DNA of 64,000 nucleotides from Promethearchaeota archaeon (GTDB lineage Archaea > Asgardarchaeota > Lokiarchaeia > Sigyniarchaeales > SOKP01): contig JBHLNF010000004.1 in the NCBI GenBank assembly GCA_048937405.1, positions 160,001-224,000 on the forward strand, given 5' to 3'. Shown in pieces: positions 26,615-38,134 of the stretch. The notes beneath the pieces are model-generated. The model ran no database searches, was not told where the DNA came from, and saw nothing but the letters and a program-made list of their open reading frames with translations. Numbering within the stretch: position 1 is the stretch's first letter; each line of letters opens with the position of its first letter. The position numbers and the translations under genes are program-made.

Positions 26615-27382
26615 TTATTTACCCATTCGGCGATCTCTAGCAATAAAGTCCTTAAGATCCTCAACAACCATTTCTTTATTATAGTCCGGCCAAAATTCTT
26701 TTCGGAATTTAAATTCTGCATAAGAAGCATCCCATAACAAGAATCCTGAGATTCTAGCTCCATCATTCATGCCAGTTCTAATAATATAATCTAAAGGAGG
26801 AAAGTCTTTTGAATAGAGGTGTGATTCAATTAAATCTTTATTAACCTGTTCTGGTTTAATTCCATTACTCACAATTTCCTTCACAGCATCAACAATTTCT
26901 TCATGACCATCATACATAACGCAAAGATTAATGAAATTTTGGTCGTTATCTTTAGTAAGCTCCATTAAATCTTGAAATTTCTCCTTAACATCATTTGGTA
27001 ACATTGAAATCTTTCCAATAATATTAAATTTAACTTTTTCCTCTTTAACGATTGATTCATTTATAATGGTATCGATAGCTTTGATCATTAACTTATAAAT
27101 ATACTCAATTTCTACAGGTTTACGTTTCCTAACATTCTCTAATGATAATATATATAAACTCAAATAATGAATTCCCGCATCAAAAAAATCGAATAATCGC
27201 TTTTTAAGGTTTTCGTAGCCAATTAAATGCCCTAAATTGATTTCGAGATTCCTCTTCTTGGCCCATCTTCTGTTAATGTCTAGAAGTGGAAATCTCTTCT
27301 AAGTACCATCAATGATGAGGCCAATATGTTTGGGTAACCTTTCTTTTTCTCTTAATTTAAGTTCTTCTAGAATAGTTTGCAT
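26615..27382 (-). CDS. uppS: cis-prenyltransferase (undecaprenyl/polyprenyl diphosphate synthase) interrupted by a 30-nt candidate intron; 245 aa when spliced
   Basis: ATG at 27382: MQTILEE...LPKHIGLIIDG[insert with TAG]NRRWAKK...GH...LSLENVRKR...DYIIRTG...RISGFLLW. Confidence 0.9.
27274..27303 (-). other. Candidate BHB-type mRNA intron in uppS (30 nt)
   Basis: CTTAGAAGAGATTTCCACTTCTAGACATTA; 7-bp hairpin; removal restores GAT GGT AAC AGA AGA TGG (DGNRRW). Confidence 0.8.
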
Positions 27383-37167: not shown

Positions 37168-38134
37168 TTGGGTATTGGAAAAGGATATGGAAAGACCATA
37201 CTTTTTGGCGAAATTTAATTCTTAATTCAAGAATAAACGCAATCATTTTGTAGTTTATGGTCTTCCTGCGATAGCATCAGCATTAGGCTCTTATACAACG
37301 GCAGAAGTTAATATAGTTAAAGGTAATGGTTGGACAGTTGATGATCAAAGAATAGCAACACCGGGTTACAAAAAACAGAAATATAGTGAGGCTATAGGGT
37401 CAATTAAAAATGTTATTGAATTTTTAAAAATTGATACTACTAATCAAAAACTTGAAATAACATTTTCAGGCGATCTAATTGCCGCAAGTGGAGTAGGTGC
37501 ATCAGCAGCTCAAAGTACATCACTTTCCCGCGCAATAAATGATGCATTTAATCTTAATTTAAATGATGAGAAGATTAATGAAGCGGCTTATGAAGGAGAG
37601 AAAGCTTATCATGGTACACCATCTGGAATTGACAATACAGCTTCAACTTATGGAGGTTTAATTTGGTTTGTTAAGAATTTAACTGGAGGAAAAAATACTA
37701 TGGAACTATTGCAATCACCAAAGAAGATGCCCTTGGTAATTTTAAATACAGGAATAACAGCCTCTACAACAGAAGTAGTAACTGATGTTAGACGCTTAAA
37801 AGAGGAATCTCCTAAAAAGTATGAAAAAATCTTTAATCAATATGAAAATCTAGCTATAAAAGCGAAAAATGCTTTACTTGAGGGAGATATTGTCAAGATA
37901 GGTGAATTAATGAATCAAAATCATAAAATGTTACAAGACATAACAGTTTCTGGAGAAATTAATGATAAACTTGTCGAAATCGCACTTCAAAATGGAGCAC
38001 TAGGTGCTAAAATGACTGGAACGGGAAGAGGGGGATTAGTAATTGCTTTAGTAGAAACTGAAAATATACAAGAAAAAATTGCGGAAGCTGTTGAAAAAGA
38101 AGGATACAATGCCTGGAAAACCATGATAGGATGA
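37168..38134 (+). CDS. mvk: Mevalonate kinase interrupted by a 31-nt candidate intron; 311 aa when spliced
   Basis: TTG after GGTGA: MGIGKGYGKTILFGE[insert]HFVVYGLPAIA...ASGVGASAA...HGTPSGIDN...GAKMTGTGRGG; frame is open from 37244 to 38134. Confidence 0.9.
37213..37243 (+). other. Candidate BHB-type mRNA intron in mvk (31 nt)
   Basis: ATTTAATTCTTAATTCAAGAATAAACGCAAT; hairpin; removal gives GGC GAA CAT TTT (GEHF) and repairs the frame. Confidence 0.82.

What the first reader, a model, noticed from the sequence alone, without database searches (positions are those of the whole stretch)
26615..27382. uppS carries a second 30-nt BHB-type intron splitting the catalytic DG|NRR motif
Seen: HIGLIIDG and NRRWAK are separated by 30 nt containing an in-frame TAG. 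The fold is CAUUG-AUGG-UA^C-[UUAGAAG-AGAUUUCCA-CUUCUAG]-ACAU-UA^A-CAG: a central helix of 3 Watson-Crick pairs plus G.A, 3-nt bulges, a 7-bp intron stem and an exon stem UUG/CAG. Canonical cuts give GAT GGT AAC AGA (DGNR) and a 245 aa protein with no other lesion. Established: DGNRR is the diphosphate-binding catalytic loop of cis-prenyltransferases and is not expected to tolerate a 10 aa insertion. Inference: a second, independent mRNA intron in the same window makes chance or a sequencing error unlikely.
Basis: partly seen in the sequence, partly recalled or inferred. Interest (0 to 1): 0.92.

Follow-up and report, generated by a model that had tools for sequence, protein, structure and literature searches.

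The report
tRNA-type mini-intron in Asgard uppS
The only gene for the lipid-carrier enzyme UppS in this Loki-type Asgard archaeon is broken inside its catalytic motif by a 30-base insert shaped like a tRNA intron, and comparison of 27 related copies indicates it is cut out of the messenger RNA, which in the papers I searched is confirmed inside a coding sequence for only one archaeal gene (cbf5).

Summary

- **The insert.** uppS (minus strand, 27382..26615) reads HIGLIIDG, then 30 nt with an in-frame TAG, then NRRWAK.
- **The gene is live.** It is the only cis-prenyltransferase found in a 100%-complete genome. dN/dS is 0.055-0.08 in exon 2.
- **Conservation.** A 30-nt insert sits at the identical site in 23 genomes of three genera of one Promethearchaeota (Lokiarchaeia) family. 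Five further contigs carry it too (four at 30 nt, one at 31 nt). Most relatives read DG|NRR with no insert.
- **Structure.** All copies keep an exon-exon helix and an intron stem separated by exactly 7 nt on each strand, the bulge-helix-bulge (BHB) geometry.
- **Covariation.** It includes an exon-intron pair (U-A/C-G) and an exon-exon pair (U-A/G-C), never broken.
- **Cut sites.** Across 21 tested copies, only the canonical cuts (after the 2nd nt of each 3-nt bulge) restore DGNRRW in all.
- **Machinery.** EndA alpha, a beta-like EndA and RtcB are present.
- **Weak point.** The central helix has only 2-4 standard pairs.
- **Context.** Mevalonate kinase in the same window has a 31-nt intron in 20 of 30 relatives. 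This scan has noted the same class on other DNA in many Asgard genomes.

The parts
26615..27382 (-). uppS (cis-prenyltransferase, archaeal undecaprenyl/dolichyl-diphosphate synthase type) gene including intron and stop codon
   Evidence: PF01255, E = 6e-55. It is the only match in the genome.
27304..27382 (-). Exon 1: 26 codons (M...HIGLIIDG) plus the first base (A) of the Asn codon
   Evidence: The boundary comes from the BHB register and the register test. dN/dS between intron-bearing species is 0.04-0.36 over the 20 codons measured.
27274..27303 (-). 30-nt BHB intron (CUUAGAAG...CUUCUAGACAUUA) with in-frame UAG at 27301..27299
   Evidence: The length is 30 nt in 27 aligned copies and 31 nt in one (L143).
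26615..27273 (-). Exon 2: last two bases of the Asn codon, then RRWAK... to the stop (219 codons counting Asn)
   Evidence: dN/dS is 0.055-0.08.
27310..27312 (-). Helix h, 5' strand (UUG, in exon 1); pairs with CAG 27272..27270. In this genome it extends outward (CAUC/GAUG, UUGGCC/GGCCAA)
   Evidence: The helix is 100% paired in 26 distinct sequences; pair 18-58 is U-A in 12 and G-C in 14.
27306..27309 (-). Central helix H, 5' strand (AUGG, exon 1); pairs with ACAU 27279..27276
   Evidence: The two central pairs always form (U-A/C-G covary; G-C is invariant). The outer pairs are often A.A or G.A.
27303..27305 (-). Bulge 1 (U A ^ C); predicted 5' cut between 27304 and 27303
   Evidence: Geometry; register test.
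27280..27302 (-). Intron stem-loop h' (UUAGAAG / 9-nt loop / CUUCUAG)
   Evidence: The helix is 91.5% paired, and 5 of its 9 pairs show changes on both sides.
27276..27279 (-). Central helix H, 3' strand (ACAU, intron)
27273..27275 (-). Bulge 2 (U A ^ A); predicted 3' cut between 27274 and 27273
27270..27272 (-). Helix h, 3' strand (CAG, exon 2: last base of Asn AAC plus AG of Arg AGA)
   Evidence: Intron-bearing copies use AAC for Asn in 20 of 21, against AAT in 39 of 51 intronless copies.

Best explanation
The 30 nt at window 27274..27303 (minus strand) are an archaeal bulge-helix-bulge (tRNA-type) intron inside the uppS coding sequence. The proposed mechanism is inferred from the known biochemistry of this enzyme system; it is not shown here. 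The pre-mRNA folds so that exon 1 pairs with exon 2 (helix h) and with the 3' part of the intron (central helix H). The intron also forms its own stem-loop (h'). This leaves two 3-nt bulges on opposite strands, 4 nt apart. The heterotetrameric (alpha-beta)2 splicing endonuclease EndA cuts after the second base of each bulge, and RtcB joins the exons and circularises the intron. The spliced mRNA reads GAT GGT AAC AGA and encodes a 245-aa UppS with an intact DGNRRW diphosphate-binding loop. Unspliced RNA ends translation at UAG after 27 codons and cannot give an active enzyme. The intron is old: it is shared by three genera. Its presence is patchy on the gene tree, needing at least 4-5 gains or losses within this genus. 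Several precise losses of one shared intron are my preferred reading, but the unrooted tree cannot tell loss from gain. Whether splicing also regulates UppS output is unknown.
For: (1) The gene is needed and alive. It is the single cis-prenyltransferase match in a 4.47-Mb, 100%-complete genome. dN/dS among intron-bearing species is 0.055-0.08 for exon 2 and 0.04-0.36 for the exon 1 codons measured.
(2) The insert is real and conserved. It occupies the same site in independent assemblies: 10 genomes of the genus, 12 of genus g28 and 1 of g18, plus 5 further contigs from NCBI, ENA and JGI records. The length is 30 nt in all of these except one copy of 31 nt.
(3) The geometry is that of a BHB. 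RNAalifold on its own finds helix h and stem h' separated by exactly 7 nt on each strand.
(4) Covariation on 26 distinct sequences: 87% of cells are paired, 7 pairs have changes on both sides (40 cells), and the score is 0.307 against 0.176 +/- 0.014 in shuffles (0 of 500 reach it) and at most 0.135 with slid partners. Exon-intron pair 21-52 is C-G 14, U-A 11, U-G 1, never broken. Exon-exon pair 18-58 is G-C 14, U-A 12, never broken.
(5) Cut sites. Of all registers tried, only removal starting at the base after the second bulge nucleotide restores DGNRRW in all 21 copies tested. Two copies read GAC in the genome and yield Asn only with that register, and the 31-nt copy allows no other register.
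(6) Exon codons are shaped by the helix. All three h pairs form in 21 of 21 intron-bearing copies against 7 of 51 intronless ones. Asn is AAC in 20 of 21 against AAT in 39 of 51.
(7) The machinery is present. One EndA is closest to the A. pernix catalytic alpha subunit (3p1z_B, E = 2e-33), and its Lys in NKPR aligns to the Lys of VEKPR in the crenarchaeal-specific loop. A second EndA lacks the catalytic His. RtcB is present. Asgard archaea are reported to have (alpha-beta)2 EndA with the L1 loop (PMC5829648).
(8) Context. aragorn finds only 14 tRNAs, 9 of them with introns, in this complete genome. MVK in the same window carries a 31-nt, frame-breaking intron in 20 of 30 relatives, with covariation.
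(9) Precedent. In cbf5 the predicted cuts lie between the 2nd and 3rd bulge residues and the intron disrupts the catalytic Asp codon (PMC2738675).
Against: No transcript, circular intron or peptide was examined, so splicing itself is inferred. The central helix is relaxed: its outer pairs are mismatched in 14 and 20 of 26 sequences, which leaves only 2 standard pairs in some species. The nearest-neighbour model prefers a different core pairing in this genome (-21 against -17.2 kcal/mol for the BHB fold). One species (G036) has TGG instead of TAG and an open 255-aa read-through frame. The substrate range of a Lokiarchaeial EndA has never been measured. The sequences compared are related, so shuffle-based statistics overstate independence. 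The two key double changes may reflect as few as two events.
Confidence: 0.85

Rival explanations
1. The 30 nt are removed from the RNA, but by something other than EndA and RtcB, for example another structure-specific endonuclease and ligase or an unknown self-processing activity.
For: Nothing here shows which enzyme acts. The central helix is weaker than in canonical EndA substrates.
Against: The 7/7-nt spacing, the 3-nt bulges and the unique cut register match EndA rules exactly. EndA alpha, a beta-like EndA and RtcB are present. A 30-nt RNA is far too small for known self-splicing introns.
Confidence: 0.05
2. Translational bypass: ribosomes hop over the 30 nt, as in phage T4 gene 60 or the mitochondrial byp elements, so no RNA cutting is needed.
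For: A stop codon lies one codon after the Gly codon and inside a stem-loop, as in gene 60. In 9 of 27 copies the last in-frame triplet of the insert is GGA or GGT, matching the take-off Gly codon.
Against: 18 of 27 copies, including this genome, have no landing triplet that matches the take-off codon. Exon-exon and exon-intron covariation with fixed 7/7 spacing is not expected for hopping. Copies that read GAC in the genome would give DGDRRW after a hop to the preceding triplet.
Confidence: 0.04
3. The gene is a pseudogene, or a split gene carrying an inert insertion (a relic of a small mobile element), and another enzyme or the C-terminal fragment does the work.
For: There is an in-frame stop. 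Public annotation calls truncated 220-227-aa products.
Against: It is the only cis-prenyltransferase in the genome. Both exons are under strong purifying selection across species that all carry the insert. The start codon and exon 1 are intact in all copies. The first start codon of the exon 2 frame (a TTG; the first Met codon lies further downstream still) comes after the catalytic DGNRRW loop and gives only a 182-aa ORF. The insert itself evolves under structural constraint.
Confidence: 0.03
4. The insert is translated: stop-codon read-through gives a 255-aa enzyme with 10 extra residues in the P-loop.
For: G036 has no stop in the insert, and its public protein record is a 255-aa read-through (P0002).
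Against: 25 of 27 aligned copies have an in-frame stop, at varying positions (G036 and G112 do not). One further copy is 31 nt long and shifts the frame. Substitutions preserve base pairs, not amino acids. The insert splits the conserved DG|N of the active-site loop.
Confidence: 0.02
5. Assembly or sequencing artefact.
For: None beyond the fact that this is a metagenome-assembled genome.
Against: The same insert appears in at least 27 independent assemblies from different studies, including closed chromosomes CP070831.
Confidence: 0.01

Closest known systems
BHB intron in the cbf5 (pseudouridine synthase) pre-mRNA of Crenarchaeota (Watanabe 2002; Yoshinari 2006; Yokobori 2009, PMC2738675)
   Same: Both are short introns inside a coding sequence, placed at the catalytic-residue codon region, with a relaxed BHB. 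Predicted cuts fall between the 2nd and 3rd bulge bases. The host has a heteromeric (alpha-beta)2 EndA. Distribution is patchy, with gain or loss among relatives.
   Different: The gene differs (a lipid-carrier synthase, not an RNA-modification enzyme), as does the phylum (Asgard/Promethearchaeota). The length is fixed at 30 nt. It is one of at least two interrupted genes in a 64-kb window. Splicing here is inferred, whereas cbf5 splicing was shown by cDNA and in vitro cleavage.
Archaeal tRNA and rRNA BHB introns cut by EndA and joined by RtcB
   Same: Same motif (h-B-H-B-h'), same predicted cut positions and same enzymes. Asgard tRNA genes are reported to be heavily interrupted (bioRxiv 10.64898/2026.10.13.758758), and aragorn recovers few tRNAs in this genome.
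   Different: The host RNA is an mRNA. Helix h and half of helix H are built from codons, so synonymous sites and the choice of Arg and Asn codons carry the structure.
BHB intron in the 5' UTR of Haloferax volcanii HVO_1309 (Schwarz 2020, PMC7714728)
   Same: An mRNA substrate of EndA, confirmed there by circRNA-seq and in vitro cleavage.
   Different: That 46-nt intron lies in the untranslated leader and does not interrupt the reading frame. The host EndA is the homodimeric alpha'2 type (own knowledge).
Unconventional HAC1/XBP1 mRNA splicing in eukaryotes (Ire1 cleavage, RtcB or Trl1 ligation; XBP1 intron 26 nt; own knowledge, RtcB role noted in PMC8718801)
   Same: A very short intron is removed from a coding sequence by a protein endonuclease acting on RNA structure, followed by tRNA-ligase joining. 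Removal is required to make the functional protein.
   Different: The endonuclease (Ire1) and the recognition motif (two stem-loops) differ. That event is stress-regulated, and no regulation is shown here.

Membership tests
Archaeal bulge-helix-bulge (EndA-type) intron | Two 3-nt bulges on opposite strands, separated by a 4-nt segment on each strand (7 nt between helix h and helix h' on both strands) | tested here: met
   RNAalifold finds h and h' with 7 unpaired or weakly paired nt on each side. There are no indels in this core in the 27 aligned copies. The one 31-nt copy carries its extra base inside the stem-loop.
Archaeal bulge-helix-bulge (EndA-type) intron | Central helix H of 4 base pairs | tested here: inconclusive
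   The two central pairs always form and covary (21-52: C-G 14, U-A 11, U-G 1; 22-51: G-C 25, G-U 1). The outer pairs are A.A, A.G or G.A in 14 and 20 of 26 sequences. That leaves 2-4 standard pairs, a relaxed BHB of the kind described for cbf5 (PMC2738675).
Archaeal bulge-helix-bulge (EndA-type) intron | Flanking helices h (exon-exon) and h' (intron) | tested here: met
   Helix h is 100% paired and h' is 91.5% paired, with 1 and 5 pairs changed on both sides.
Archaeal bulge-helix-bulge (EndA-type) intron | Cleavage after the 2nd nt of each bulge gives the functional product | tested here: met
   This register is the only one that restores DGNRRW in all 21 copies tested.
Archaeal bulge-helix-bulge (EndA-type) intron | Host encodes a splicing endonuclease able to accept relaxed motifs, and an RtcB ligase | tested here: met
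   Two PF01974 genes are present. The alpha-like one is closest to A. pernix alpha, with its loop Lys aligned. The second lacks the catalytic His. RtcB scores E = 1.8e-169. The actual substrate range is not tested.
Archaeal bulge-helix-bulge (EndA-type) intron | Spliced RNA and excised (circular) intron exist in vivo | not testable with these tools
No same-species spliced form was found in the protein database or in metagenome contigs.
cis-Prenyltransferase / UppS (Pfam PF01255) | Full-length match to the family profile | tested here: met
   Exon 2 matches model positions 5-219 of 219 at E = 6e-55. Intronless orthologues of 245 aa carry PF01255.
cis-Prenyltransferase / UppS (Pfam PF01255) | Contiguous DGN(R/G)RWA diphosphate-binding loop with the catalytic Asp | tested here: met
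   The loop is present only after removal of the 30 nt. It is contiguous in the genome in 51 distinct intronless relatives.
Programmed translational bypass (T4 gene 60 / byp type) | Matching take-off and landing codons flanking the gap | tested here: not met
   The take-off codon is GGN. The last triplet of the insert is GGA or GGT in only 9 of 27 copies, and is ATT in this genome.

The most novel reading that the evidence does not exclude
The uppS intron may be one member of a large, evolutionarily active population of ~30-nt EndA-type introns in protein-coding genes of Lokiarchaeia and other Asgard archaea. On this reading the introns insert at sites able to form a BHB, often in catalytic motifs near the 5' end, and are gained and lost between sister species. 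Production of enzymes such as UppS and mevalonate kinase would then depend on tRNA-splicing capacity, a possible post-transcriptional gate on isoprenoid and glycan-carrier synthesis. That would be a 'genes in pieces' architecture in the closest prokaryotic relatives of eukaryotes.
Probability: 0.35. Interest if true: 0.9.

Novelty: new member of a known kind. Interest (0 to 1): 0.78.

Why it matters
- **Rarity in print.** In the papers I could search, splicing of an archaeal coding sequence by the tRNA-splicing enzymes is confirmed for one gene family only, cbf5 in Crenarchaeota. PMC7714728 says so explicitly and adds one 5'-UTR case.
- **What is new here.** The same mechanism is implied for an essential metabolic gene in Asgard archaea. 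It is conserved over three genera, with the RNA structure written partly into codon choice.
- **Annotation.** Public records of these genes are truncated (220-227 aa, lacking the catalytic Asp) or read through the insert (255 aa). Pathway reconstructions would wrongly score the gene as defective.
- **Evolution.** Presence and absence among sister species offers a natural system for studying intron gain and precise loss in prokaryotes closely related to the eukaryotic ancestor.
- **Testability.** The exon-intron covariation gives ready-made compensatory mutants for a cleavage assay.

Tried and rejected
- **Spliced form in the protein database.** The nearest 245-aa proteins are at most 92.6% identical to any intron-bearing species, so they are intronless relatives and not transcripts of the same species.
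- **Spliced junction in metagenome contigs.** The degenerate spliced-junction pattern hit 16 contigs. All are from other taxa (one is about 80% related), and none is a spliced copy.
- **Genome-wide scan for more such introns.** I combined a BHB descriptor (stem of 4-8 bp, at least 3 of 4 H pairs, 7/7 spacing) with an ORF-restoration filter. It gave as many hits as decoys with shifted cut sites (for example 39 against 42-59 at the strictest setting). The scan therefore cannot count introns and says nothing either way.
- **Sequence-motif search for relatives of the intron.** It gave 426 hits in this AT-rich genome and was non-specific.
- **Alternative readings.** Bypass, read-through, pseudogene and artefact were considered and are set out under rivals.
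- **Size and type.** Group I or II and spliceosomal introns are excluded by size (30 nt) and by the lack of their boundary motifs. An intein is excluded by size (10 codons) and by the in-frame stop.

Full report
**Observation.** The minus strand from ATG 27382 reads MQTILEELKLREKERLPKHIGLIIDG. Ten codons follow that contain TAG (T*KRFPLLDI). The frame then reads NRRWAKKRNL... and stays open to the stop at 26617..26615. Removing 30 nt gives 26 + 219 = 245 residues. Exon 2 alone matches Pfam PF01255 at E = 6e-55, starting at model position 5 of 219. The first four model positions therefore fall on the IIDG that ends exon 1. In the 71-nt surrounding region the MFE is -21 kcal/mol, with z = -3.34 against shuffles. 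The explicit bulge-helix-bulge (BHB) fold evaluates at -17.2 kcal/mol.

**The gene is alive and single.** The window lies in a 4.47-Mb genome in 29 contigs, scored 100% complete. Its only match to the UppS query is this locus. Among species that all carry the insert, dN/dS is 0.055-0.08 for exon 2 and 0.04-0.36 for the 20 exon 1 codons measured. The start codon and the exon 1 reading frame are intact in every copy. The first start codon of the exon 2 frame (a TTG, 182-aa ORF) lies downstream of the catalytic loop. A separately translated C-terminal fragment would therefore lack the DGNRRW loop.

**Distribution.**
- Record titles identify the relatives as Promethearchaeota/Promethearchaeia (Lokiarchaeota) MAGs.
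- In the genus (54 genomes held, 49 with a uppS match) the insert is present in 10: G000, G070, G036, G003, G009, G014, G016, G006, G010 and G028. Each of the other copies whose junction could be read has DG|NRR uninterrupted.
- In the family (134 genomes, 13 genera) it is also present in 12 genomes of genus g28 and one of g18.
- Five further contigs from NCBI, ENA and JGI records carry it.
- The length is 30 nt in all but one copy. L143 has 31 nt, and its extra base lies in the stem-loop.
- Twenty-five of the 27 aligned copies have an in-frame stop, at varying positions; G036 and G112 have none.
- On a gene tree of 48 genus sequences, presence or absence needs 5 changes, and at least 4 are forced by starred branches. 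For example, G010 (intron) is sister to G020 (none) with 100/100 support.
- Site, length and sequence are shared across three genera. One old gain with several precise losses is therefore the simplest history, but the unrooted tree cannot prove it.

**Structure.** RNAalifold, given no hint, predicts an exon-exon helix and an intron stem-loop separated by exactly 7 nt on each strand. That is the BHB core: a 4-nt helix plus a 3-nt bulge on each strand. Results on 26 distinct sequences:
- 87% of cells are paired.
- 7 of 16 pairs have changes on both sides (40 cells).
- The covariation score is 0.307. Shuffles give 0.176 +/- 0.014 (0 of 500 reach the observed value), and partners slid by 1-3 columns give at most 0.135.

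Two pairs are especially telling. The exon-intron pair in the central helix joins the third base of the Asp codon to intron position 28. It is C-G in 14, U-A in 11 and U-G in 1, and is never broken. The exon-exon pair joins the third base of the Ile/Val/Leu codon to the first base of the Arg codon (AGA against CGN). It is G-C in 14 and U-A in 12, and is never broken. These sequences are related, so the statistics overstate independence. G010 carries the g28-type pairs inside the g1 clade, so at least two events are implied.

The weak point is the central helix. Its outer pairs are mismatched in 14 and 20 of 26 sequences, leaving 2-4 standard pairs. Such relaxed motifs are described for the cbf5 introns (PMC2738675).

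**Cut sites.** For 21 copies I asked which deletion registers restore DGNRRW. Each copy tolerates one to nine neighbouring registers because of short repeats at the borders. The intersection is a single register: the intron starts after the second base of bulge 1 and ends after the second base of bulge 2. Two copies read GAC (Asp) in the genome and become AAC (Asn) only under that register. The 31-nt copy allows no other register. This is the position at which EndA cuts (between the 2nd and 3rd bulge residues; PMC2738675).

**Codon choice.** All three pairs of the exon-exon helix form in 21 of 21 intron-bearing copies, against 7 of 51 distinct intronless junctions. Asn is AAC in 20 of 21 intron-bearing copies but AAT in 39 of 51 intronless ones. 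This comparison is descriptive only and is not phylogenetically corrected.

**Machinery and context.**
- The genome has two PF01974 genes.
- One (197 aa) is closest to the A. pernix catalytic alpha subunit (3p1z_B, E = 2e-33). It aligns without gaps through the crenarchaeal-specific loop, including its Lys. The importance of that Lys is from my own knowledge of Hirata 2011, PMC3241643.
- The other (200 aa) lacks the catalytic His. This fits an (alpha-beta)2 enzyme, as reported for Asgard archaea (PMC5829648).
- RtcB is present.
- aragorn recovers only 14 tRNA genes, 9 of them with introns. This is in line with the heavy tRNA interruption reported for some Asgard lineages (bioRxiv 10.64898/2026.10.13.758758).
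- In the same window mevalonate kinase carries a 31-nt, frame-breaking insert (37213..37243). It is present in 20 of 30 genus loci, with covariation that includes GGCG/CGC changing to GGUG/CAC.

**Rivals.**
- Bypass fails because 18 of 27 copies have no landing triplet that matches the Gly take-off codon.
- Read-through fails on the variable stops and the 31-nt copy, and because substitutions preserve pairs rather than residues.
- Pseudogene status fails on selection and single-copy status.
- An artefact is excluded by recurrence in independent assemblies, including a closed chromosome.
- Removal by an enzyme other than EndA cannot be excluded, but nothing requires it.

**What is missing.** There is no RNA evidence. 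Searches for a same-species spliced form in the protein collection and in metagenome contigs found only intronless relatives. A homology-free genome-wide scan for more introns was no better than its decoys.

**Literature and earlier notes.** PMC7714728 states that cbf5 is the only reported additional BHB intron in an archaeal mRNA, and adds one 5'-UTR case. PMC2738675 notes that introns in other protein genes had only been predicted. My searches found no paper on BHB introns in Asgard coding sequences. Notes of this scan list many similar candidates in this genome (rpo10, PFK and others) and in at least 117 other genomes. Some follow-up reports claim RNA support in other genes. I treated these as leads. 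By eye, the rpo10 and PFK sequences of this genome fit the same architecture.

**Verdict.** This is a BHB intron in the uppS mRNA of a Lokiarchaeial archaeon, confidence 0.85. It is a new member of a kind published for a single gene.

Noticed in passing
window 37213-37243 (+), gene 37168-38134: Mevalonate kinase is interrupted by a 31-nt insert after GGC GAA, with an immediate TAA and a frameshift. The same insert is in 20 of 30 genus loci (L053-L081). Its stem shows compensatory changes, and its central helix covaries between exon and intron (GGCG/CGC against GGUG/CAC). The covariation score is 0.220 against 0.162 in shuffles (1 of 500 reach it). The exon-exon helix is nearly absent (HBh' type).
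   Followed up: yes
G000 contig C7 (+), about 997405-997435 (outside the window): rpo10 (RNA polymerase subunit N) reads ...CCKRMIV, then stop codons, and the conserved HVDLIDELL resumes 31 nt later in another frame. By eye the region fits the same h-B-H-B-h' layout (UCGU/GCGU, bulges AAA and AUG). The canonical cuts give RMIVSHVDLIDELL.
   Followed up: partly
G000 contig C25 (+), about 149016-149046 (outside the window): Phosphofructokinase: VGILTGGG, then 31 nt, then (D)CPGLN. Central helix GCGG/CCGU. The canonical cuts restore GGGDCPGLN.
   Followed up: partly
whole genome G000: aragorn finds only 14 tRNA genes (9 with introns) in a genome scored 100% complete. Most tRNA genes are probably hidden by multiple or non-canonical introns.
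   Followed up: no
P0001, P0021, P0030, P0036, P0054, P0033 (truncated) and P0002 (read-through): Public gene calls for intron-bearing uppS start inside or after the intron (220-231 aa, no catalytic Asp). In G036 they read through it (255 aa). The intron is not recognised by annotation pipelines.
   Followed up: yes
G082 (genus g18): C1:488874-489530 and C7:104373-105029: One genome holds two uppS copies, one with the intron (at a contig end) and one without (245-aa open frame, 65% identity to the query).
   Followed up: no
window 27274-27304 (-) and 37213-37243 (+); loci L009-L024, L053-L081: In most species the uppS and MVK introns share their ends: 5' A|UUUA... and ...UAAAC at the base of the intron stem. 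This hints at a common origin or an enzyme preference.
   Followed up: no
genus genomes G018, G027, G035, G074, G031: No uppS match at all, although four of these genomes are 89-98% complete and the fifth, G031, is 58% complete. This could be assembly gaps or something else.
   Followed up: no
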